A stretch of DNA of 30,130 nt. It comes from a virus. This document shows positions 1-30,130 of this stretch, piece by piece. The translations under genes were made by a program, and so were the position numbers. Numbering within the stretch: the first letter of the stretch is position 1; each line of letters begins with the position of its first letter. The stretch is from the IMG/VR virus record IMGVR_UViG_3300045988_128138; one strand, given 5' to 3'. The notes below the pieces were generated by a model that saw only the letters and a list, made by a program, of their open reading frames with translations, ran no database searches and was not told where the DNA came from.

Positions 1-119
1 GATCAAAAAGCAATACAGCAAAGAAAAGAAGAAGAAAAGATTTATAAAAAGTGGGCTAGAGAAAAGAGAGCAATATAATGACTTACATTGTTATTGAAAA
101 TAGAAAAACGAAAAAAAGA
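1..119. repeat. terminal direct repeat, identical to 30012..30130; the window is slightly longer than one circular genome unit (~30,011 bp)
   Basis: bases 1-119 recur verbatim at 30012-30130; ORF 29781..30089 reads through into 1..77 and ORF 78..263 restarts at 30089. Confidence 0.9.
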
Positions 120-2998: not shown

Positions 2999-4267
2999 TT
3001 GCAAGTAATTGATATTGAGCTAAGCAAACTTAAAGAATATGAAAACAACCCAAGAAACAACGACAACGCAATAGAAGCAGTACAAAATAGTATAGCTTCT
3101 TTTGGCTTTAAAGTACCAATTATTATAGACAATAATTTTTACATAGTGGCCGGTCATACAAGAAGAAAAGCAGCAATAAATTTAGGTTTTAAAACCGTGC
3201 CTTGTATTATTGCTGACGATTTAACCGAAGAGCAAATAAAAGCTTTTAGGCTTGTAGACAATAAAACGGCTGAATTGGCTGACTGGGACTTTATAAAACT
3301 AGAAGAAGAGTTAGCAAGCATTAGTATAGATATGAGCGCCTTTAGCTTTGATATGAGCGAATTATCGAAAGAGTTTGATAGCAACAAAGAAGTAATAGAA
3401 GACGACTTTAACGCTGCAGAAGTGGCCGAAGAAATAATAAAACCTATAACAAAGCAAGGCGATATATGGCAGCTTGGCGAGCATAGGCTATTATGTGGCG
3501 ATAGTACAAACACAAAAGATTTAAAATTGCTTATGGCTGGTAAACAAGCTGATTTATTATTAACTGATCCACCATATAATATAAACGTTTCTAATAGTCA
3601 AGGAATGACAATTAAAAACGATAATATGAGTAACATACAATTTTATGAGTTTTTAAAAGCAGCCTTTAATAATGCAAACAAAAACTTAAAAGAGGGTGGA
3701 GCTTTTTATATTTGGCACGCTGATAATGAAAGTTTAAATTTTAGACAAGCCAGTGAATATGTTGGCTGGAAAATAAGACAGTGTTTAATTTGGGTTAAAA
3801 ATGGCTTTACTTTAGGGCGCCAAGATTACCAATGGAAGCACGAACCTTGTTTGTATGGCTGGAAAGACGGCGAAGCACATTACTTTGTAAATGATCGAAC
3901 ACAAAGCACGGTTATTGAAGATAAGTTAGACGTCAATAAACTTAAAAAAGAAGAAATGAAAGATTTAATAAAAGAGTTATTGAAAGAAAAAGAAGAAGCA
4001 GCGACAACGGTTATTTATGAAGATAAACCATTAATTAATACAGTACACCCGACAATGAAGCCTATTAAATTAATTGCAAAGTTAATCAGTAACAGCAGCC
4101 GAAAGAATGAAATAGTTTTAGACATTTTTGGAGGAAGCGGGAGTACATTAATTGCTTGCGAACAATTAAACCGTCAATGCTATACTATGGAACTTGATCC
4201 AAAGTATTGCGATGTAATTATTAAACGTTGGGAAGAACTAACGGGCAATACAGCGGTAAAAATCTAA
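2999..4267 (+). CDS. ParB-like N-terminal domain fused to a beta-class DNA (N6A/N4C) methyltransferase
   Basis: TTG start; ParB-N signature IVAGHTRRKAA; methyltransferase motif IV DPPYN (LLLTDPPYNI) before motif I FGGSGST (DIFGGSGSTLIACEQL), the beta-class motif order. Confidence 0.75.
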   Translation: MQVIDIELSKLKEYENNPRNNDNAIEAVQNSIASFGFKVPIIIDNNFYIVAGHTRRKAAINLGFKTVPCIIADDLTEEQIKAFRLVDNKTAELADWDFIKLEEELASISIDMSAFSFDMSELSKEFDSNKEVIEDDFNAAEVAEEIIKPITKQGDIWQLGEHRLLCGDSTNTKDLKLLMAGKQADLLLTDPPYNINVSNSQGMTIKNDNMSNIQFYEFLKAAFNNANKNLKEGGAFYIWHADNESLNFRQASEYVGWKIRQCLIWVKNGFTLGRQDYQWKHEPCLYGWKDGEAHYFVNDRTQSTVIEDKLDVNKLKKEEMKDLIKELLKEKEEAATTVIYEDKPLINTVHPTMKPIKLIAKLISNSSRKNEIVLDIFGGSGSTLIACEQLNRQCYTMELDPKYCDVIIKRWEELTGNTAVKI

Positions 4268-5398: not shown

Positions 5399-6052
5399 AT
5401 GGCATTTTATGTTTTAGACGAAAACAATAATAAAGTTGAGGCTTACGACAAAGAGGGCGTATTAGCAGTATTAGAGCAAGCCATAGAAAACGGCAGCTTA
5501 GAACAAATAACAGCTAATAGTGCTTTTGTTACAAAGCTTAAATGCTGCGTTGGTGGAGGCACTTATAAAATGGCCTTTATTACACAAGAAAAATACAACG
5601 AGCTAAAAACAAATAGTCAATTATCAAGTGATACATTTTATTGGATCACTGACGATACAACTTGCGAAGAAATAAACAACGCATTAACAAACATTAATAA
5701 TAATATTACAAGCATTAATAATAGGTTGGACGCTTTAGGTTTTAAGAGTGGCGTTTTTGTTGTTAGTGGCGTAAGCGCCGAATTAATAAGCACTAACAGT
5801 TTGAAAAAGCAAGGAAAATATGTAATTGCTAGTTTAGAATTAGTTAGCACAACAGCACTTAGTAATTTAGCAATTAGCGTACCAAGTGATTTTAAACCGA
5901 AAGAAAACACAAAAGTTAGAGTTGGTTATTTAAATAGTCTTGGCGTTCAAAATTATACTGATTGTACGCTTAACACGAATGGTATTTTAAATAATATACC
6001 AACTGGAATAGTGGTGTTAACAATTAAAAATGCGGGTTGGGAGGTTAGTTAA
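5399..6052 (+). CDS. hypothetical protein (217 aa), N/T/S-rich, probably a beta-rich structural or host-recognition-like protein
   Basis: intact ORF with RBS GAGGAGG; resembles a structural protein by composition only. Confidence 0.4.
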   Translation: MAFYVLDENNNKVEAYDKEGVLAVLEQAIENGSLEQITANSAFVTKLKCCVGGGTYKMAFITQEKYNELKTNSQLSSDTFYWITDDTTCEEINNALTNINNNITSINNRLDALGFKSGVFVVSGVSAELISTNSLKKQGKYVIASLELVSTTALSNLAISVPSDFKPKENTKVRVGYLNSLGVQNYTDCTLNTNGILNNIPTGIVVLTIKNAGWEVS

Positions 6053-6053
6053 T

Positions 6054-6575
6054 ATGGCATACTTTAACGGAAAAAAAGTAATAAGCGCTTTTGGTGGTAT
6101 GCAAAAGCCAGAAGAATACGGATTCGTTAATATGATGAACGTAACATACGATCCAACCTCAAAGCTTTATATTAAACTACCTACAACTGGGAAAGTATTC
6201 AAAGATATTGAATTACAAAAAGACATTTATTTAATACCTAGTAATATCAAAAAAGGCGTAAAAATTGAGGGAGTTACTGGAACTTACAAGGGAACTGGAA
6301 CTTACAAGGGAACTGGATCAACAATAAGTACTGTCACAATGACAATTAATGCTGTTGGTACTAATGTAACAGCTTATTTTAATTATTTGAATAATGGCGA
6401 TATTGATGTCAACGAGAAAATACTAGCTTTAGGTGAAAGTGAAAGCATTGAAGCTGTTAAAGGAACTTTGGTATTTTTTAGTGGAAATACACCTAGTGAT
6501 ATTACGGGTAACGCTCAACTAATAACTAGCGGTGTATATCAAATTATGGGTAATGTAACATTTTTATTTGAATAA
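6054..6575 (+). CDS. hypothetical protein (about 174 aa), G/T/N-rich, carrying an internal TYKGTG x2 duplication
   Basis: preferred start ATG 6054 (MAYFNGKKV) with GGAGG 10 nt upstream, just after the stop at 6050-6052; the track start 6030 lacks an RBS. Confidence 0.4.
   Translation: MAYFNGKKVISAFGGMQKPEEYGFVNMMNVTYDPTSKLYIKLPTTGKVFKDIELQKDIYLIPSNIKKGVKIEGVTGTYKGTGTYKGTGSTISTVTMTINAVGTNVTAYFNYLNNGDIDVNEKILALGESESIEAVKGTLVFFSGNTPSDITGNAQLITSGVYQIMGNVTFLFE
6279..6314 (+). repeat. perfect 18-bp tandem duplication (GGAACTTACAAGGGAACT x2)
   Basis: read directly; in frame, encoding GTYKGT GTYKGT. Confidence 0.8.
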
Positions 6576-6895: not shown

Positions 6896-8239
6896 ATGGC
6901 TGAAAATATATATTTTCCTTTAAATGGTGGTAGTGGTAGTGGAAGTGAAGCTGCTCCTCATATTACGATTACAGTAGATGATTTAAAATATGATTATAGC
7001 GGAACTTTAACCGCAGAACAATTAGCCATCTTAGCTGAAGATAATGCTTACATTAATTTTGATATAGTAATTTCAAGCGATTCAAAGATAAGATTTATTT
7101 TAAATAAAAATGAAGTGATACCAAATGAAGGCACTCCTATTAATTATGTATTTGCTGCTCCAATTAATCTGGGTGAAGGCGAACCTATGACATTTTCTTT
7201 ATTTATTACTGTTGAAGATTCATCTTATATTAGTTCAGTGTTTAATCCAGCGTTTTATCTAAAGGGTGTAAAAGTTAATGGAACAGAATTAGATTCACCT
7301 AATGATATAGCCGAACTCAATCTTAAAACAATTAATAATCAATCAATAGTTGGAACAGGTGATATAACTGTCGAAGGTGGTGCTGAAGTAATTGAAAAAG
7401 GCATTAATTTAAGTACTAACAAATTCACTACAGTATTGACAGCTGAGGAATTTAACAAATTGAAGAATAATGAAGCTATTATAAAAACCACAACCACATA
7501 CTTAGATGTTATTCCATTAGTTTTATATGGAAGCAATCCATCTGTAATAAATGGAACTGCTATTGGTAGTGATTATGATATGTTAGTATATGCTATTCCA
7601 AGTCCTTTAACAGACGATCCAGCAGTATATATATTATCAATACAATCAAATACATTAGATTCGTTTTCTATAAAAACTATACAAGTTAATGAACCGGTGT
7701 TAGGAAAATCATCTACAAATACTTATAGTGCAATATCAGATTATCCTTTACTTGGTTTTTCATCAAGGGAAGCAGATATACTTCAATTGCATATGTCAAA
7801 CAGTATATATATAGGAAAATTTACTTATGACTCTACTGGTAGTTCATATGTATTTTATGAAGGAAATGATAGTAAACATACTTATTTCGTAAGTAAATTA
7901 ACTGGTATTATTGGTTTAGAAAATGATGATAAAAACTATGCTTCATTTGAGATAGTATTAAGACTTAACGAAAAGAATCCAAATACAAGTGTAATTGAAG
8001 ATAAATATTATTCATGTATTATACATATTTCAAGTATAACGTCTAATGCCTCAGAAGGAACGTTCACTATTTATGATACTGCAACTAATAAAATAACATA
8101 TGTAATATTGAGAATATGTGCTAATTCAAGTGCTTCACCTATGTTTGAAATGGATTATCTAAAAGCATATCAAGATGGTGTGGAGATAACTTCAACATTT
8201 GCTAGTAAAATAAGTTGTATTTATTTGTATTTATTATAA
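6896..8239 (+). CDS. hypothetical protein (447 aa) with atypical codon usage; probably horizontally acquired cargo
   Basis: RBS AGGAGGAAA; Asp is mostly GAT and Ser mostly TCA/AGT here, whereas the rest of the genome prefers GAC/AGC/GCG; no motif recognised. Confidence 0.45.
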   Translation: MAENIYFPLNGGSGSGSEAAPHITITVDDLKYDYSGTLTAEQLAILAEDNAYINFDIVISSDSKIRFILNKNEVIPNEGTPINYVFAAPINLGEGEPMTFSLFITVEDSSYISSVFNPAFYLKGVKVNGTELDSPNDIAELNLKTINNQSIVGTGDITVEGGAEVIEKGINLSTNKFTTVLTAEEFNKLKNNEAIIKTTTTYLDVIPLVLYGSNPSVINGTAIGSDYDMLVYAIPSPLTDDPAVYILSIQSNTLDSFSIKTIQVNEPVLGKSSTNTYSAISDYPLLGFSSREADILQLHMSNSIYIGKFTYDSTGSSYVFYEGNDSKHTYFVSKLTGIIGLENDDKNYASFEIVLRLNEKNPNTSVIEDKYYSCIIHISSITSNASEGTFTIYDTATNKITYVILRICANSSASPMFEMDYLKAYQDGVEITSTFASKISCIYLYLL

Positions 8240-23700: not shown

Positions 23701-23751
23701 TAGCGACACATTACCGACACAATATACAATAAATATACAAGCAATATACTA
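23701..23751. promoter_or_regulatory. putative attP arm region: three phased direct repeats AATATAC(A/T)A at 23721, 23732 and 23743, plus a fourth copy at 23546-23554
   Basis: repeats spaced 11 bp apart, immediately beyond the integrase stop codon; arm-type sites of tyrosine integrases typically cluster this way. Confidence 0.45.
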
Positions 23752-24765
23752 ATATTTAAATTTGTTTATGACTTTTATTAAGTCGTCAATATTCTTGTGT
23801 GTATAATGTTTAGTAATGTTATTGTTGCTATGGCCTATAATTCTTGAAACGGCTGTGTCGTTTAATTCGAGCCTATCACATTGACTAATAAATGTGTGTC
23901 GTGTTTCGTGCGGCGTATGATCCATTTTTAAAAACTCCATAACGGGCTTAAAAATATGACGTATGTAATAGTTGTAAGAAATAGGCTTTTTATCTTTTTC
24001 AAATAAGTATTTTTTATTATTTTCTAAACTAAATTTAACAAAGTCTAAAATATCGTTATGTATTGGAATAAACCTTACACCAGCTGGCGTTTTAGATTTA
24101 GCAATATAAATGGATCTATCTTTTAAGTTAATATTTTCTAAAGTTACCTCTAATAATTCAGTAATACGAGCGCCAGTATAAAGCTGAATTAGTATATAAT
24201 TAATAAATGTTTCGTTTTTATGTTTCCAAAGTGTTTTTATCTCTTTTTGAGTAAATGGCACTTTGGGTTTTTTTATTTCTACTTTTGGCATTTCTATAAA
24301 ACTTGCGTAATTTTTTTCTACTATTTCATTTTTTAAAGCATAATCATAAAGCATATTTATAAAGCTTTTAAAATGCTTAATTGTTGCGTTGCTTTTATTC
24401 TTATCTATTATTTCTTGCAAATGATATGTTTTGATAGACGAAAAAGCCATATTGTGTAATGGCTTAAAATGATTATAAATACTTATATAATTTTTAGCGG
24501 TACGAGGAGTTATATTTTCATATTTTCGTTTGCTCCAAGCGTTGTAAACATCATTAAAAGTCAAGTCTTTATTATCTAGCAAATAAGGTTTTTCATTATA
24601 TGCGGTTAGATATTTTAAAGCTTCTTGGCGTTTTTCAAAATAGCCAATATATTTATATATTTGGCTTCCGTTTTCTTTATAACCAATTGTTACCCTAGCC
24701 GCAAAAGGCTTGCGGCGTTTACCACTTAATTTAATAATTGATCCATAACCATTTGGGAGCCTCAT
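23749..24765 (-). CDS. int: tyrosine integrase
   Basis: 338 aa; N-terminal arm-binding-like domain; catalytic RITELLEV (Arg), HETRHTFISQ (His-x-x-Arg) and GHSNNNITKHYTH (Tyr). Confidence 0.85.
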   Translation of the reverse strand: MRLPNGYGSIIKLSGKRRKPFAARVTIGYKENGSQIYKYIGYFEKRQEALKYLTAYNEKPYLLDNKDLTFNDVYNAWSKRKYENITPRTAKNYISIYNHFKPLHNMAFSSIKTYHLQEIIDKNKSNATIKHFKSFINMLYDYALKNEIVEKNYASFIEMPKVEIKKPKVPFTQKEIKTLWKHKNETFINYILIQLYTGARITELLEVTLENINLKDRSIYIAKSKTPAGVRFIPIHNDILDFVKFSLENNKKYLFEKDKKPISYNYYIRHIFKPVMEFLKMDHTPHETRHTFISQCDRLELNDTAVSRIIGHSNNNITKHYTHKNIDDLIKVINKFKY

Positions 24766-25666: not shown

Positions 25667-25695
25667 TTGACAAAGTAAAAATATTGTGGTATAAT
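25667..25695 (+). promoter_or_regulatory. consensus sigma70 promoter (TTGACA-17nt-TGgTATAAT)
   Basis: perfect -35 at 25667-25672, a 17-nt spacer, an extended -10 TGG and a perfect -10 at 25690-25695; drives 25747..26428. Confidence 0.75.
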
Positions 25696-27046: not shown

Positions 27047-27664
27047 ATGAGAAGTTATAAAATAGAGGCTGGGCAAAGTTCAGTAAACCCTATAAGAGAT
27101 CAAGACGACTTATACAATTGTATTCATTTTTGGGAAAAGAAAAGAGATCAAGCTCCAACCGAAGCAAAAAGAAAAAATTATGATAGAAACTACTTAATGT
27201 TTCTTGTTGGTATTAATACAGCGTTACGATTTAGCGATTTAAGACGTTTGACTGTAGAAAAAGTCAAAAACAATTATATTTACCAGCGAGATAAAAAAAC
27301 TGGTAAAGAAAATAAGATCACTTTAAATAGTGACATTTACAAAGAAGTAATGGCCTATATCAAGCGCAACGCTTTACACGATAGCGATTATTTATTCTGG
27401 AGCAGCAAAGGTGTTAATAAGCCTCTTACAAGGGTAATGGGCTACAACATTATGCAGCAAATGAAAGAGGGTTGCAAAATAGCATATAACATTGGCACAC
27501 ATTCGTTAAGAAAAACATACGGCTACTGGTTTTATAAACAAACTGGCGATATAGTGGCCTTGCAAGCAATTTTAAACCATAGCACACCAGCACAAACGTT
27601 GATCTATATAGGTATGCAGCAAAAGCAAGTTGACGAAAAGAGAAAAGCATTTGTTTTAAAGTAG
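27047..27664 (+). CDS. small tyrosine recombinase (catalytic domain only, FimB/FimE- or Xer-like in size)
   Basis: 205 aa; ALRFSDLRRL (Arg I), GTHSLRKTYG (His-x-x-Arg), LNHSTPAQTLIYIGM (His...Tyr nucleophile); no N-terminal core-binding domain. Confidence 0.65.
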   Translation: MRSYKIEAGQSSVNPIRDQDDLYNCIHFWEKKRDQAPTEAKRKNYDRNYLMFLVGINTALRFSDLRRLTVEKVKNNYIYQRDKKTGKENKITLNSDIYKEVMAYIKRNALHDSDYLFWSSKGVNKPLTRVMGYNIMQQMKEGCKIAYNIGTHSLRKTYGYWFYKQTGDIVALQAILNHSTPAQTLIYIGMQQKQVDEKRKAFVLK

Positions 27665-28366: not shown

Positions 28367-28425
28367 ATAAAAAACCGAAATATACTTTATAGAACATTTT
28401 TAAAGAGAAAAAGGAGGTATAAAAA

Positions 28426-28707
28426 ATGCGTAATAAAGTTTGTTGGGACGTTCAAAAATCGAAAGGTAAAGATCAATATACATATTATTGTTTTATTGAT
28501 GATCCTAATAATAGACCAATGGAAAGACGAGCAATACAAAGTACTATTGAAGATATTGAAAATAAAATAAAAAAACTAACTCCAGTTGTTAACCTTGTGA
28601 ATGAGTTAAGAAAAAATTTAAAAGAGTTAGAAACTTTAAAACGATTAATCGACGAGCGAAATTATAATCAAGCAATGGAGGAAAGCAACGATGGAAAAAA
28701 TAATTAA
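28426..28707 (+). CDS. hypothetical protein (93 aa)
   Basis: RBS AAAGGAGG. Confidence 0.4.
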   Translation: MRNKVCWDVQKSKGKDQYTYYCFIDDPNNRPMERRAIQSTIEDIENKIKKLTPVVNLVNELRKNLKELETLKRLIDERNYNQAMEESNDGKNN

Positions 28708-28936
28708 ATTATTAGAAGAAAAAGGTATTATTAAAATTATTAAAGCAGCTGAAAAAAAGGCTGATATTACGGCTGGAATAATGAATATCGAAAAAACTGA
28801 TAATGAGTTATTAATTGGTATAAAAACCGCACTTCTACGAACTGCTGTTAAAAATGAGGAACTTTTTGACGCAATTATTGATTATGCGTTTGAAGCTGTA
28901 GCAAAAGAAGTAATGGAACTTATCAAGGAGGAATAA
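28691..28936 (+). CDS. hypothetical protein (81 aa)
   Basis: RBS GGAGGAAAGC; overlaps the upstream gene. Confidence 0.4.
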   Translation: MEKIIKLLEEKGIIKIIKAAEKKADITAGIMNIEKTDNELLIGIKTALLRTAVKNEELFDAIIDYAFEAVAKEVMELIKEE

Positions 28937-28940
28937 AAAA

Positions 28941-29120
28941 ATGAAGGGAATAATAATTATAGGAATTGTAATATTCAGTTTAAACATACTAGCTGATATT
29001 ATTATAGTTATTGGCAAGTTATTAGACCAATACGAACTTGATAATAGTTGTGTTAGTGTTACTATTATAACTGATATTTTTTGGTTGGTATTTTTTATAC
29101 TTTTCTTAACTCAATTATAA
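28941..29120 (+). CDS. small hydrophobic membrane protein (59 aa, two TM segments)
   Basis: not in the track; RBS AAGGAGG; MKGIIIIGIVIFSLNILADIIIVIG...IFWLVFFILFL. Confidence 0.4.
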   Translation: MKGIIIIGIVIFSLNILADIIIVIGKLLDQYELDNSCVSVTIITDIFWLVFFILFLTQL

Positions 29121-29142
29121 GAATTTAAAGGAGGAATAAAAA

Positions 29143-29529
29143 ATGGAAGAAAAACAACTTAAAGAAATATTAGAAAAGCACCAAAAAATGCTTAATAATG
29201 AAGCTGGTGGAGAATTAGCAAATTTAAGCAATGCAGATTTAAGACGTGCAAATTTAAGCGGTGCAGATTTAAGCGGTGCAGATTTAAGCGGTGCAGATTT
29301 AAGCGGTGCAGATTTAAGACGTGCATATTTAAGACGTGCATATTTAAGCGGTGTAAATTTAAGCTATGCATATTTAAGACGTGCAAATTTAAGCGGTGCA
29401 GATTTAAGCAATGCAAATTTAAGCGGTGCAGATTTAAGCTATGCACATTTAAGACGTGCAGATTTAAGCGGTGCAGATTTAAGCGGTGCAGATTTAAGCT
29501 ATGCAAAAATCTATTACACAAAATTCTAA
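29143..29529 (+). CDS. pentapeptide-repeat protein
   Basis: about 19 consecutive A(D/N)LS(G/Y/R/N)-type pentapeptides (ADLSGADLSGADLRRAYLRRAYLSGVNLSY...); RBS AAAGGAGG. Confidence 0.8.
   Translation: MEEKQLKEILEKHQKMLNNEAGGELANLSNADLRRANLSGADLSGADLSGADLSGADLRRAYLRRAYLSGVNLSYAYLRRANLSGADLSNANLSGADLSYAHLRRADLSGADLSGADLSYAKIYYTKF
29213..29510 (+). repeat. about 20 tandem 15-nt repeats (unit close to GATTTAAGCGGTGCA), in frame within the pentapeptide-repeat gene
   Basis: read directly; near-perfect nucleotide-level periodicity. Confidence 0.85.
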
Positions 29530-29540
29530 AGAGGTAGACA

Positions 29541-29765
29541 ATGAATAAATTAACTATTAATTGGATCATTAGTACGCTTAATAAAAGCGGTATTAATTCA
29601 AAAAAGCAAATAAGAGAACGGTTGCAAAATGCTAGTATCGAAGAATTAGAAGACTTGGAAAAATCAATACAAGGAATTATTACAGAAAAGATTTTAGAGC
29701 AAGATTTTAAGAAAACATACGCAACAATTGTAAAGCCGCAAGACGTTTTAAACAAAAAAGATTAG
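29541..29765 (+). CDS. hypothetical protein (74 aa)
   Basis: RBS AGAGG. Confidence 0.4.
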   Translation: MNKLTINWIISTLNKSGINSKKQIRERLQNASIEELEDLEKSIQGIITEKILEQDFKKTYATIVKPQDVLNKKD

Positions 29766-29780
29766 AAGAGGAGGCCAACA

Positions 29781-30089
29781 ATGGCAAAATTAAATAAAAC
29801 GACTGAAATAGTCAAAACAATTTTATTAGAAAATGAAGCAGCAAGATCAGACGATTTTATATTAATATTAGAAGTTTTTAAAACTTTTGGAATTAAAGAA
29901 GACGACGAAATAGGCGACGTTTTCAAAGTGCATAAAGAAAAGGCATTGCCTAGTATTCACTCAATTGTAAGAGTAAGACGCTTTATACAATCTAAACACC
30001 CAGAATTAGTAGATCAAAAAGCAATACAGCAAAGAAAAGAAGAAGAAAAGATTTATAAAAAGTGGGCTAGAGAAAAGAGAGCAATATAA
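29781..30089 (+). CDS. hypothetical protein (102 aa); same gene whose 3' end appears at 1..77
   Basis: RBS GAGGAGG; basic C-terminus. Confidence 0.45.
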   Translation: MAKLNKTTEIVKTILLENEAARSDDFILILEVFKTFGIKEDDEIGDVFKVHKEKALPSIHSIVRVRRFIQSKHPELVDQKAIQQRKEEEKIYKKWAREKRAI

Positions 30090-30130
30090 TGACTTACATT
30101 GTTATTGAAAATAGAAAAACGAAAAAAAGA

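What the first reader, a model, noticed from the sequence alone, without database searches (positions are those of the whole stretch)
29143..29529. Pentapeptide-repeat (DNA-mimic-like) protein encoded by near-perfect 15-nt tandem repeats
The early-region gene encodes about 19 A(D/N)LSG/ADLRR pentapeptide repeats flanked by short unique ends. Pentapeptide-repeat proteins form right-handed quadrilateral beta-helices that mimic B-DNA (Qnr and MfpA protect gyrase). Phage early DNA mimics commonly act as anti-restriction or anti-defence factors. The nucleotide sequence is also almost perfectly periodic (15-nt units), suggesting recent expansion by slippage and possible length variation between isolates.
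Basis: partly seen in the sequence, partly recalled or inferred. Interest (0 to 1): 0.6.

Follow-up and report, generated by a model that had tools for sequence, protein, structure and literature searches.

The report
Hypervariable pentapeptide-repeat gene in gut phage
A small early gene of a ~30 kb temperate human-gut phage encodes a five-coil pentapeptide-repeat beta-helix built from a 15-nt tandem array whose unit number and surface residues change between near-identical phages; it is a real member of a common, functionally unstudied phage protein family, but it lacks the features of a DNA mimic.

Summary
ORF 29143..29529 (+), 128 aa, has a 25-residue N-terminal helix, 19 clean pentapeptides plus one degenerate unit, then TKF. 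It is encoded by a 15-nt array of 18.8 copies and matches Pfam PF00805 at E 7.6e-39. AlphaFold2 predicts an uninterrupted quadrilateral beta-helix (pLDDT 97.8). The best structural matches are cyanobacterial and synthetic PRPs, not Qnr or MfpA.

The slippage and length-variation prediction is strongly supported. Related gut-phage contigs with 97-100% identical flanks carry alleles of 153, 128, 123, 113, 108, 103, 63, 58, 51 and 43 aa. Some relatives lack the gene. Across 106 units in six long alleles there is no synonymous difference. All variation is nonsynonymous and lies almost entirely at outward-facing positions.

The DNA-mimic and anti-restriction reading is not supported:
- Net charge is 0 to -3 (pI 5.1-6.7).
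- There are only about 5 coils.
- There is no C-terminal dimerisation helix and there are no loops.

No phage PRP has an experimentally shown function in the searched literature. My best reading is a dispensable early accessory protein that binds a host factor through its variable faces (inferred). It is a new member of a known kind and moderately interesting.

The parts
29127..29134 (+). Shine-Dalgarno sequence AAAGGAGG, 8 nt upstream of the ATG. It is part of a repeated gene-boundary motif AAGGAGGAATAAAAAA.
   Evidence: Sequence read. The motif occurs 3 times in the window (28411, 28925, 29128), each just before a start codon, against 0.02 expected.
29143..29529 (+). Pentapeptide-repeat protein gene, 128 aa plus stop.
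   Evidence: ORF list; Pfam PF00805 E 7.6e-39; PHROG 7713 E 3.2e-35, unknown function; AF2 pLDDT 97.8.
29143..29217 (+). N-terminal cap, 25 aa MEEKQLKEILEKHQKMLNNEAGGEL (predicted helix at residues 3-17). It is 96-100% conserved at the DNA level among alleles.
   Evidence: AF2 secondary structure; the family consensus LxxILxxHxKWLxxxxxGxRANL in alignment A1; N-terminal identity 0.96-1.00.
29218..29502 (+). 19 canonical 15-nt / 5-aa units with consensus GCA GAT TTA AGC GGT (ADLSG). This is the hypervariable array.
   Evidence: TRF; unit table; allele comparison.
29503..29526 (+). Degenerate 20th unit AKIYY plus the C-terminal tail TKF. The tail (A/T)x I (Y/N)(Y/C) TKF is conserved in all alleles.
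25667..25695 (+). Candidate early rightward promoter (TTGACA-17-TATAAT with TG, 12 of 12). No convincing + strand terminator lies between it and the PRP gene.
   Evidence: Consensus scan only. Whether it drives this operon is inferred.
29192..29755 (-). Antisense 187-aa ORF (LNLHR repeats). This is a by-product of the periodic sequence staying open in other frames and is not considered a gene.
   Evidence: ORF list. The same antisense ORF changes length with the array in L001. It has no family support.

Best explanation
SHOWN. The feature is a real, translated-looking early accessory gene of a ~30 kb temperate siphovirus-like phage that is common in human gut metagenomes. Its product is a minimal cytoplasmic pentapeptide-repeat protein: an N-terminal capping helix followed by an uninterrupted right-handed quadrilateral beta-helix of about 5 coils. 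In each unit, A (i-2) and L (i) point inward. The residues at i-1, i+1 and i+2 form four solvent-exposed ladders. The gene is encoded by a 15-nt tandem array that behaves as an in-frame variable-number tandem repeat (VNTR). Unequal recombination or slippage between near-identical units adds, deletes and reshuffles units. As a result, phages with 97-100% identical flanks carry 15 to 25 units with different orders of D/N/Y/R/G/S-bearing units, or deletion remnants of 3-7 units. In other relatives the cassette is absent or replaced.

INFERRED. The protein works as a protein-binding scaffold or decoy that engages a host factor early in infection, either a defence component or a takeover target. 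Binding would be through its exposed faces; in this allele one side is acidic and the other is Arg/Tyr-rich. The recombinogenic array would let the phage lineage change that surface quickly. It most likely does not act by mimicking B-DNA.
For: Gene reality and fold:
- Strong SD and ATG; PF00805 E 7.6e-39.
- AF2 pLDDT 97.8 and pTM 0.88, with one beta-bridge every 5 residues from residue 27 to 127.
- Foldseek matches to Np275/276 (E 4e-10) and synthetic Beta1 (TMq 0.80, rmsd 0.8 A). Many phage PRPs match in BFVD, topped by Eggerthella phage PMBT5.

Protein-level selection on the scaffold:
- In 106 units of six long alleles, position 3 is L in 106/106 and position 1 is A in 103/106. Variation is confined to positions 2, 4 and 5.
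- The caps are conserved.

Array dynamics:
- Alleles of 153, 128, 123, 113, 108, 103, 63, 58, 51 and 43 aa, plus a further partial allele.
- L104 and L087 differ by a 2-unit insertion.
- Flanks are 97-100% identical while arrays are 69-85% identical.
- There are zero synonymous differences. All 16 variant nucleotide states are nonsynonymous (P about 0.004-0.02 under simple neutral models).
- The 128-aa and 113-aa alleles were each recovered in two assemblies.

Accessory status:
- The gene is absent or replaced in L089, L091, L106 and L111, although the replisome-organiser gene is about 96% identical in the first three.

Early context:
- cI-like repressor, HTH genes, an Int-like gene, small ORFs, the PRP, then a replisome organiser.
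- Listeria phage B025 gp51 has the same layout, and the CKA15 PRP lies in an early operon (PMC12282133).

The same behaviour appears elsewhere:
- Listeria-type prophage PRPs with identical termini range from 132 to 227 aa in steps of 5.
- Caulobacter phage GB2A has a 375-bp (25 x 15) deletion in its PRP gene (PMC11053796).

Against DNA mimicry: net charge 0 to -3.
Against: - No binding partner, phenotype or expression data exist. The 'host-factor binder' step is inference from what other PRPs do (HetL-HetR, SopA/NleL substrate domains, Qnr/MfpA-gyrase; my own knowledge, not tested here).
- The gene is dispensable in close relatives. Several alleles have only 3-7 units (fewer than about two coils) and probably cannot fold, which fits relaxed constraint as well as it fits an arms race.
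- The excess of nonsynonymous states rests on few independent events and ignores mutation bias and gene conversion.
- The charged-face pattern is not conserved across alleles.
- No PADLOC hit and no annotated anti-defence neighbour were found.
- Some short alleles, and the contig breaks at the array, may reflect short-read assembly problems.
Confidence: 0.45

Rival explanations
1. Topoisomerase-directed PRP. Like Qnr, MfpA, AlbG or McbG, it would bind host DNA gyrase or topo IV. It would either modulate supercoiling for phage replication or protect the enzyme from a poison or toxin during infection.
For: - Gyrase is the only experimentally established cytoplasmic bacterial PRP target (review PMC10886550).
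- The gene sits just upstream of the replication module.
- Phages are known to encode small gyrase modulators (Gip, Igy; PMC10886550).
- Sequence-level hits to AhQnr (E 3e-14), QnrB1 (E 6e-13) and MfpA (E 1e-8) reflect the shared repeat.
Against: - It lacks the features those proteins need: 8-10 coils, a C-terminal helix that makes a ~100 A dimer, Qnr loops A and B, and an anionic surface.
- Structural matches to them are poor (TMq 0.26-0.5).
- A conserved essential target does not explain a hypervariable surface and a 15-25 unit length range.
Confidence: 0.2
2. Neutral or decaying repeat ORF. A slippage-prone array expanded within a small accessory gene. The protein folds but has no current function, and the allelic diversity is mutational noise.
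For: - The gene is absent or replaced in close relatives.
- Alleles with 3-7 units are unlikely to fold.
- A viable Caulobacter phage carries a 375-bp deletion in its PRP gene (PMC11053796).
- No function is known for any phage PRP.
Against: - Inward-facing A and L are essentially invariant in 106 units and both caps are conserved. No frameshifted allele was seen (in-frame deletion follows automatically from a 15-nt unit) and no premature stop was seen (not automatic).
- Synonymous changes are absent although nonsynonymous ones are abundant.
- The family is widespread and retained in hundreds of phage genomes (476 phage records; 554 IMG/VR stretches).
Confidence: 0.15
3. Classical acidic DNA mimic acting as an anti-restriction or anti-defence protein, as Ocr, ArdA and Arn do.
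For: - Early expression context.
- The PRP fold has the diameter of B-DNA and was proposed as a mimic for MfpA and Qnr (Shah & Heddle 2014, cited in PMC7261183).
- The phage also carries its own ParB-methyltransferase, which suggests restriction pressure.
Against: - Net charge is 0 and pI is 6.7. Other long alleles have net charge 0 to -3.
- There is a basic Arg/Tyr face.
- The rod is only about 24 A long (5 coils x 4.8 A, from fold geometry) and no dimerisation element is predicted.
- The PRPs McbG and QnrB did not inhibit BREX in the one test found (PMC7261183).
Confidence: 0.08
4. The 15-nt array is primarily a DNA-level element, such as origin iterons or a protein-binding array next to the replication module, and the ORF is incidental.
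For: - It is a tandem array of 19 near-identical units about 0.9 kb upstream of the replisome-organiser gene on the circular map.
- Third-codon positions are invariant, as if the DNA sequence itself were constrained.
Against: - Relatives with a ~96% identical replisome organiser lack the array entirely (L089, L091, L106).
- Variation follows codon and structural logic (inward residues fixed, outward residues variable), not DNA-site logic.
- The protein signal is strong, and the N-terminal cap is homologous with thousands of PRPs.
Confidence: 0.04
5. Short-read assembly artefact: the array length or order in this contig is wrong.
For: - Several contigs of the same phage family end at the array (L097-L099, L107-L109, L220).
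- The ZEEV15 scaffold ends 2 nt after the gene.
- The shortest alleles come mainly from k=31 Logan assemblies.
Against: - The longest internal exact repeat is 52 nt, below k=119.
- A second assembly gives a 100% identical array.
- The short alleles L092 and L086 contain 18 junction 31-mers that are absent from the corresponding long arrays, so they are not simple graph collapses of those arrays.
- The 113-aa allele was recovered twice.
Confidence: 0.05

Closest known systems
Phage pentapeptide-repeat proteins of unknown function (PHROG 7713; Listeria phage B025 gp51 / LP-HM00113468; Eggerthella phage PMBT5 'repeat five residue protein'; Rheinheimera Barba phages 'pentapeptide')
   Same: - Same N-terminal cap motif (xELxxILExHxKxLxxxxGGxxANL) followed by A(D/N)LxG-type units.
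- Same early-region placement among small ORFs upstream of the replication and recombination genes.
- Same DNA-level unit GCA-NAT-TTA-AGN-NNT and the same length polymorphism in steps of 5 aa.
- 60-62% identity by tblastn; the best viral structural match is PMBT5, E 1e-13.
   Different: - Most relatives are 170-225 aa and carry an extra C-terminal globular domain of 60-90 aa, which has no Pfam family (DUF5758 in one). This protein ends 3 residues after the last coil.
- The conserved Trp of the cap (HxKWL) is Met or Arg here.
Cyanobacterial Np275/Np276, Rfr23/Rfr32 and the synthetic Beta1 solenoid derived from them
   Same: - Best fold matches: 2j8k at E 4e-10, 4ycq at TMq 0.80 and rmsd 0.8 A over 103 columns.
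- A regular A(D/N)LxG helix with no loops and an N-terminal capping helix.
   Different: They are cellular proteins of unknown function and are not encoded by nucleotide-homogeneous arrays. No phage context or allelic length series is known for them (my knowledge, not tested).
Topoisomerase-protecting PRPs: Qnr (QnrB1, AhQnr), MfpA, AlbG, McbG
   Same: Pentapeptide-repeat quadrilateral beta-helix; cytoplasmic; carried on mobile elements in some cases.
   Different: They have about twice as many coils, a C-terminal helix that forms a rod-like dimer, loops (Qnr) and an anionic DNA-like surface (PMC10886550). None of these features is present here, and structural superposition is poor (TMq 0.26-0.5).
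Acidic DNA-mimic anti-restriction proteins (T7 Ocr, ArdA, T4 Arn)
   Same: Small, early-expressed phage or MGE proteins. An elongated shape is proposed to occupy DNA-binding sites (PMC7261183, PMC2731889).
   Different: They have unrelated folds and their defining feature is a dense array of surface carboxylates. This protein is charge-neutral and has a basic face.
Repeat-array proteins with near-identical DNA units and variable specificity residues (TAL effector repeats; variable-number tandem-repeat surface proteins)
   Same: Units are almost identical at the nucleotide level. Variation is concentrated at a few exposed residues per unit. Unit number and order are reshuffled by recombination.
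   Different: This is an analogy only. The fold and the 5-aa unit size are different, and there is no evidence that the unit order encodes a binding specificity.

Membership tests
Pentapeptide repeat family (Pfam PF00805, Rfr fold) | Tandem five-residue units A(D/N)LXX, with Leu/Phe at the centre and Ala at i-2 | tested here: met
   19 clean units plus 1 degenerate unit; PF00805 E 7.6e-39, 131 bits against a 20.2 cut-off.
Pentapeptide repeat family (Pfam PF00805, Rfr fold) | Right-handed quadrilateral beta-helix with four units per coil | tested here: met
   Prediction only. AF2 pLDDT 97.8 with a beta-bridge every 5 residues. Foldseek probability 1.00 to 2j8k, 4ycq, 2g0y and others.
Phage PRP family PHROG 7713 / B025 gp51-like | N-terminal cap helix motif followed by the PRP array, encoded in a phage genome | tested here: met
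   phrog_7713 E 3.2e-35 over residues 2-72; cap consensus in A1; phage context.
Phage PRP family PHROG 7713 / B025 gp51-like | C-terminal globular domain after the array (present in most relatives of 170-225 aa) | tested here: not met
   The protein ends with TKF 3 residues after the last unit.
Topoisomerase-protecting PRPs (Qnr/MfpA/AlbG/McbG) | About 8-10 coils (180-220 aa) forming a rod-like dimer through a C-terminal alpha-helix | tested here: not met
   128 aa, 5 coils, the only helix is at residues 3-17, no C-terminal helix. Oligomeric state was not testable.
Topoisomerase-protecting PRPs (Qnr/MfpA/AlbG/McbG) | Predominantly anionic, DNA-like surface | tested here: not met
   D+E 16 against K+R 16, pI 6.7. 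Face charges are -3, -1, +1, +4. Other alleles have net charge 0 to -3. This is a sequence-based face assignment, not an electrostatic calculation.
Topoisomerase-protecting PRPs (Qnr/MfpA/AlbG/McbG) | Loops interrupting the helix (Qnr loops A and B) | tested here: not met
   Uninterrupted 5-residue periodicity from residue 26 to 125.
Topoisomerase-protecting PRPs (Qnr/MfpA/AlbG/McbG) | Binds gyrase or topo IV and protects against poisons | not testable with these tools
   Needs biochemistry.
Acidic DNA-mimic anti-restriction proteins (Ocr/ArdA/Arn) | Very acidic protein whose carboxylates mimic the phosphate backbone | tested here: not met
   pI 6.7, net charge 0.
Acidic DNA-mimic anti-restriction proteins (Ocr/ArdA/Arn) | Inhibits R-M, BREX or other DNA-binding defence enzymes | not testable with these tools
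No PADLOC or anti-defence annotation was found.
In-frame VNTR (variable-number tandem-repeat) coding locus | Copy-number polymorphism of the unit among otherwise near-identical genomes | tested here: met
   Ten full-length alleles of 43-153 aa with flanks 97-100% identical. Caveat: these are short-read assemblies.
Diversity-generating retroelement target | Nearby reverse transcriptase and template repeat; adenine-specific variation | tested here: not met
   No RT was detected among the window ORFs scanned (several smaller ORFs were not scanned). Codon 2 varies only at its first base (NAT) while the adjacent A is almost fixed. There is no second copy of the array in the window.

The most novel reading that the evidence does not exclude
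The array is a modular, rapidly re-assortable binding surface under diversifying selection. Near-identical 15-nt cassettes differ only at the three exposed residues. Recombination shuffles them to generate new beta-helix faces. This would give temperate Firmicute phages (this gut phage family and the Listeria B025-like prophages) a 'variable-repeat binder' that tracks a fast-evolving host target such as a defence protein. The logic is comparable to TAL-effector or variable-lymphocyte-receptor repeats and has not been described for pentapeptide repeats.
Probability: 0.2. Interest if true: 0.7.

Novelty: new member of a known kind. Interest (0 to 1): 0.4.

Why it matters
Pentapeptide-repeat proteins are annotated in hundreds of phage genomes: 476 of 50,697 phage records hit this one. 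No function has been shown for any of them in the literature I could search. This locus does not answer that question, but it narrows it in three ways.
- It gives a minimal version of the family, cap plus five coils and nothing else.
- It shows that the reflex 'PRP = DNA mimic' annotation does not fit its charge or size.
- It provides a natural allelic series (15-25 units with different exposed residues, deletion remnants, and gene-free relatives) in otherwise near-identical phages. That series is a ready-made experiment for linking repeat content to host range or defence evasion.

It also flags a practical point. These arrays break or shorten short-read assemblies, so PRP gene lengths in metagenomic phage catalogues should be treated with caution.

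Tried and rejected
1. Near-identical DNA in GenBank phages: none.
2. Orthologue census by protein search with the cap+tail 43-mer: only 7 short proteins, mostly from k=31 Logan contigs, so uninformative about length distribution.
3. Host identification from the neighbouring 102-aa gene in GTDB genomes: no hit. The integrase gave 89% and 84% matches on contigs binned into Oscillospiraceae and Christensenellaceae MAGs. The 30.9 kb contig is probably the phage itself, so the host stays uncertain. That relative lacks the PRP.
4. Defence-system membership: no PADLOC hit.
5. Function from neighbours or alternative cassettes: all are of unknown function in PHROGs and Pfam.
6. Function from the C-terminal domains of homologues: no Pfam family apart from DUF5758 in one homologue.
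7. DGR-type mutagenesis: rejected. No RT was detected among the ORFs scanned, there is no template copy, and the variation pattern is wrong.
8. Origin or iteron role: rejected because relatives with ~96% identical replication genes lack the array.
9. Pure de Bruijn collapse as the source of the short alleles L092 and L086: not supported, since they carry novel junction 31-mers. It cannot be excluded for other samples.
10. Literature: six searches found no experimental function for a phage PRP.
11. tRNAs in the window: none.
Full report
**1. The observation**

The window is a 30,130-nt contig whose first and last 119 nt are identical. It is therefore a circularly assembled genome of about 30,011 bp (ENA ERZ27260752, k119_155115).

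At 29143..29529 on the + strand there is an ATG-initiated ORF of 128 codons. AAAGGAGG precedes it 8 nt upstream. Tandem Repeats Finder reports one outstanding array in the whole window: 29218..29499, period 15, 18.8 copies, no indels, score 368.

Read in frame, the protein is MEEKQLKEILEKHQKMLNNEAGGEL, then 19 units of the form A-(D/N/Y/H)-L-(S/R)-(G/R/N/Y), then AKIYY and TKF. Pfam PF00805 matches at E 7.6e-39.

**2. The DNA periodicity exceeds what the protein requires**

All 19 units use the same codon for each amino acid: GCA, GAT/AAT/TAT/CAT, TTA, AGC or AGA, and GGT/CGT/AAT/TAT. That is 11 amino-acid/codon pairs for 10 amino acids. Re-encoding the same peptide from this genome's own codon usage gives 26.7 pairs on average and never fewer than 21 in 2000 trials. 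The units therefore share recent common ancestry or are kept homogeneous by recombination. Codon bias does not explain the pattern.

**3. Fold**

AlphaFold2, run with a 45-sequence alignment (A1), gives mean pLDDT 97.8 and pTM 0.88. It predicts one helix (residues 3-17) and then a beta-bridge every fifth residue to the C-terminus.

Foldseek against the PDB returns only pentapeptide-repeat structures. The best are Np275/276 (2j8k, E 4e-10) and the synthetic Beta1 solenoid (4ycq, TMq 0.80, rmsd 0.8 A over 103 columns). Qnr, MfpA and AlbG align poorly (TMq 0.26-0.5).

Against predicted viral structures, the top matches are generically annotated phage PRPs, headed by the gut Eggerthella phage PMBT5.

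**4. Genomic context**

The window is a temperate siphovirus-like phage. It encodes:
- terminase large subunit, portal, major head protein, tape measure and minor tail proteins;
- a 338-aa integrase on the minus strand;
- a divergent cI-like repressor.

A rightward operon starts near a perfect sigma-70 consensus at 25667..25695. It runs through HTH genes, a second 205-aa tyrosine-recombinase-like gene, a string of small ORFs including the PRP, and then a replisome organiser, a RusA-like gene and a ParB-methyltransferase.

The PRP is thus an early-operon gene. This rests on position and a consensus promoter; expression itself was not shown.

The source is human gut. An identical locus lies on a ZEEV15-1 scaffold, and relatives come from a contig labelled 'human.gut.metagenome' of PRJEB4336. 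The exact sequences of the two downstream proteins occur in 56 and 68 blocks of the assembly collection, so the phage family is common.

The host is unresolved. The integrase is 89% and 84% identical to contigs binned with Oscillospiraceae and Christensenellaceae MAGs, but binning of phage-sized contigs is unreliable.

**5. Related phages: the key result**

I used the invariant downstream genes as anchors and recovered the same locus from many assemblies. The N-terminal cap (96-100% nt identity) and the 560 nt downstream (97-100%) are conserved. The arrays can be aligned only at the 69-85% level expected of any two strings of such units.

| Allele length (aa) | Source | Units (canonical + degenerate) |
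|---|---|---|
| 153 | L100 | 24+1 |
| 128 | window | 19+1 |
| 123 | L001 | 18+1 |
| 113 | L104, L222 | 16+1 |
| 108 | L101 | 15+1 |
| 103 | L087 | 14+1 |
| 63 | L090 | 6+1 |
| 58 | L086 | 5+1 |
| 51 | L085/L093/L221 | 3+1 |
| 43 | L092 | 2+1 |

There is also a different partial allele of at least 85 aa (L220).

Further points on the alleles:
- L104 differs from L087 by a two-unit insertion.
- The 51-aa allele fuses the N-terminus of the upstream 132-aa gene to the PRP, through the similar EMLEK/EILEK segments.
- In L089 the slot holds an unrelated 132-aa ORF.
- L091 and L106 lack the array, and the more distant L111 lacks the gene.

**6. How far the alleles can be trusted**

All are short-read assemblies. 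Several contigs end at the array (L097-L099, L107-L109, L220), which is what repeat-induced graph breaks look like.

Three points argue that the long alleles are real:
- The window's longest exact internal repeat is 52 nt, well below k=119.
- A second assembly is 100% identical over 4,389 nt including the array. I cannot tell whether it comes from the same sample.
- The 113-aa allele was recovered in two datasets.

The short alleles L092 and L086 each look like one deletion within the window-type or L087-type array. They contain 18 junction 31-mers that those arrays lack. A k-mer graph cannot invent k-mers, so they are not simple collapses of the known arrays. The true arrays in those samples are unknown, however.

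Independent support from cultured material comes from two sources:
- Caulobacter phage GB2A differs from near-identical isolates by a 375-bp deletion (25 x 15) in its PRP gene (PMC11053796).
- Prophage PRPs of the Listeria B025 gp51 type, with identical N- and C-termini, range from 132 to 227 aa in steps of five residues.

**7. Pattern of variation**

In 106 units from the six long alleles:
- Position 3 is Leu in all 106 and position 1 is Ala in 103.
- Positions 2, 4 and 5 vary (D/N/Y/I/H/A; S/R/G/C/I; G/R/Y/N/A/V/S).
- Third-codon nucleotides 3, 6, 9 and 15 are invariant. Nucleotide 12 varies only as the S-to-R change.
- All 16 variant nucleotide states are nonsynonymous, although 10 of the 45 possible single changes of the consensus unit are synonymous.

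P(no synonymous state) is 0.018 if all sites are equally mutable. It is 0.004 if only synonymous and exposed-residue changes are allowed.

This fits a young or homogenised array whose inward scaffold is under purifying selection and whose exposed residues are free, or driven, to change. I treat the 'driven' part as suggestive only. The events are few, units are copied rather than independent, and mutation bias was not modelled.

The Listeria-type arrays use the same DNA unit (GCA-NAT-TTA-AGN-NNT). They show the same concentration of diversity at positions 4 and 5, with rare synonymous variants. That sample was selected by the DNA pattern itself, so it is biased towards uniformity.

**8. Is it a DNA mimic?**

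The defining property of Ocr/ArdA-type mimics, and of the surface proposed to mimic DNA in MfpA and Qnr, is a dense negative charge. This protein has 16 acidic and 16 basic residues and a pI of 6.7. The other long alleles have net charges of 0, 0, -3, -1 and -2.

I assigned units to the four faces, which is justified by the uninterrupted periodicity in the model. In the window allele the faces carry -3, -1, +1 and +4, with Tyr concentrated on the basic side. This is an amphipathic charge pattern rather than a phosphate-like one, and it is not conserved across alleles.

The helix has five coils, about 24 A from the 4.8 A rise per coil. It has no C-terminal helix and no loops. The gyrase-directed PRPs are about twice as long and dimerise through a C-terminal helix (PMC10886550). 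In the only relevant experiment I found, the PRPs McbG and QnrB did not inhibit BREX (PMC7261183).

I therefore rate the DNA-mimic reading as unlikely (0.08) and a gyrase-directed role as possible but not favoured (0.2).

**9. What it most likely does**

*Shown:* a real, dispensable early cassette encoding a minimal capped beta-helix, on a recombination-prone in-frame VNTR.

*Inferred:* like other PRPs whose partners are known, it probably acts by binding another macromolecule along its faces. Its early, accessory, presence/absence-polymorphic and surface-variable character fits a host-interaction or counter-defence role better than a housekeeping one.

No partner, phenotype or expression datum supports this directly. 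Neighbours and alternative cassettes are all of unknown function. There is no PADLOC match. Six literature searches found only annotation-level mentions of phage PRPs. The neutral-decay alternative (0.15) remains open because of the very short alleles and gene-free relatives.

A DNA-level role such as origin iterons is rejected, because relatives with ~96% identical replisome-organiser genes lack the array. A DGR origin of the variation is rejected because no RT was detected among the ORFs scanned, there is no template copy, and the substitution pattern is wrong. The 187-aa antisense ORF (29192..29755) is a frame-open by-product of the periodic sequence.

**10. Verdict**

The protein is a new, minimal member of the widespread and functionally uncharacterised phage PRP family (PHROG 7713). 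It lacks the C-terminal domain that most relatives carry.

Its most interesting aspect is the allelic series and the all-nonsynonymous, exposed-residue variation. That pattern may mark a re-assortable binding surface. I give this about 0.2 probability, and it would be noteworthy if true.

Overall interest is 0.4.

Noticed in passing
window 1..119 and 30012..30130: The contig ends are an exact 119-nt direct overlap, equal to the assembler's k. The window is therefore a circularly closed genome of about 30,011 bp, and the PRP region is contiguous with the replication genes at the window start.
   Followed up: yes
window 27047..27664 (+): A second, short (205 aa) tyrosine-recombinase-like gene sits inside the early lytic operon, in addition to the 338-aa integrase at 23749..24765 (-). 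Listeria phage B025 has the same arrangement (gp43 'site-specific integrase') a few genes upstream of its PRP gp51. Its role is unknown (regulator? resolvase?).
   Followed up: partly
window 28411..28426, 28925..28940, 29128..29143: A 16-nt gene-boundary motif AAGGAGG(A/T)ATAAAAAA occurs three times, each ending at a start codon of consecutive small genes (0.02 expected by chance). These conserved junctions may serve as recombination joints for cassette exchange in this variable region.
   Followed up: partly
L085 3594..3749, L093, L221: A 51-aa hybrid allele. The N-terminus of the upstream 132/138-aa gene (MEYKEILKLKEMLEK...) is fused to the PRP cap and only 3+1 units remain. This implies a deletion between two short similar helix-coding segments, and it was seen in two ENA samples.
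   Followed up: partly
L119-L198 (IMG/VR), L110 5001..5540 (Listeria phage B025 gp51): About 100 viral contigs, mostly Listeria-type prophages from isolate genomes, carry arrays built from the same DNA unit GCA-NAT-TTA-AGN-NNT. One clade with identical N- and C-termini has alleles of 132-227 aa in steps of 5 aa, and position 5 of the unit is extremely diverse (G, N, Y, W, D, R, C, F, I, L, H...).
   Followed up: partly
window 6896..8239 (+): A 447-aa ORF in the replication/late-early region has no hit in Pfam or PHROGs.
   Followed up: no
window 2999..4267 (+); L087 7251..7769, L094 3694..4212: A ParB-N-terminal domain is fused to an N6/N4 DNA methyltransferase (PHROG 498, E 9e-160). In some relatives the gene is called as only a 172-aa ParB_N ORF, so the methyltransferase part appears truncated or lost.
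   Followed up: no
window 28941..29120 (+): The 59-aa ORF immediately upstream of the PRP is very hydrophobic (MKGIIIIGIVIFSLNIL...FWLVFFILFLTQL). It is probably a small membrane protein. It accompanies the PRP only in the window-type lineage (also L092); other lineages have a 132-aa gene there.
   Followed up: no
window 6276..6317: A perfect 18-nt tandem repeat (ACTGGAACTTACAAGGGA x 2.3) lies inside the 181-aa ORF 6030..6575.
   Followed up: no
L097-L099, L107-L109, L220; L084: Many assemblies of this phage family break exactly at the PRP array, and the ZEEV15 scaffold ends 2 nt after the gene. PRP gene lengths in short-read phage catalogues are therefore unreliable.
   Followed up: partly
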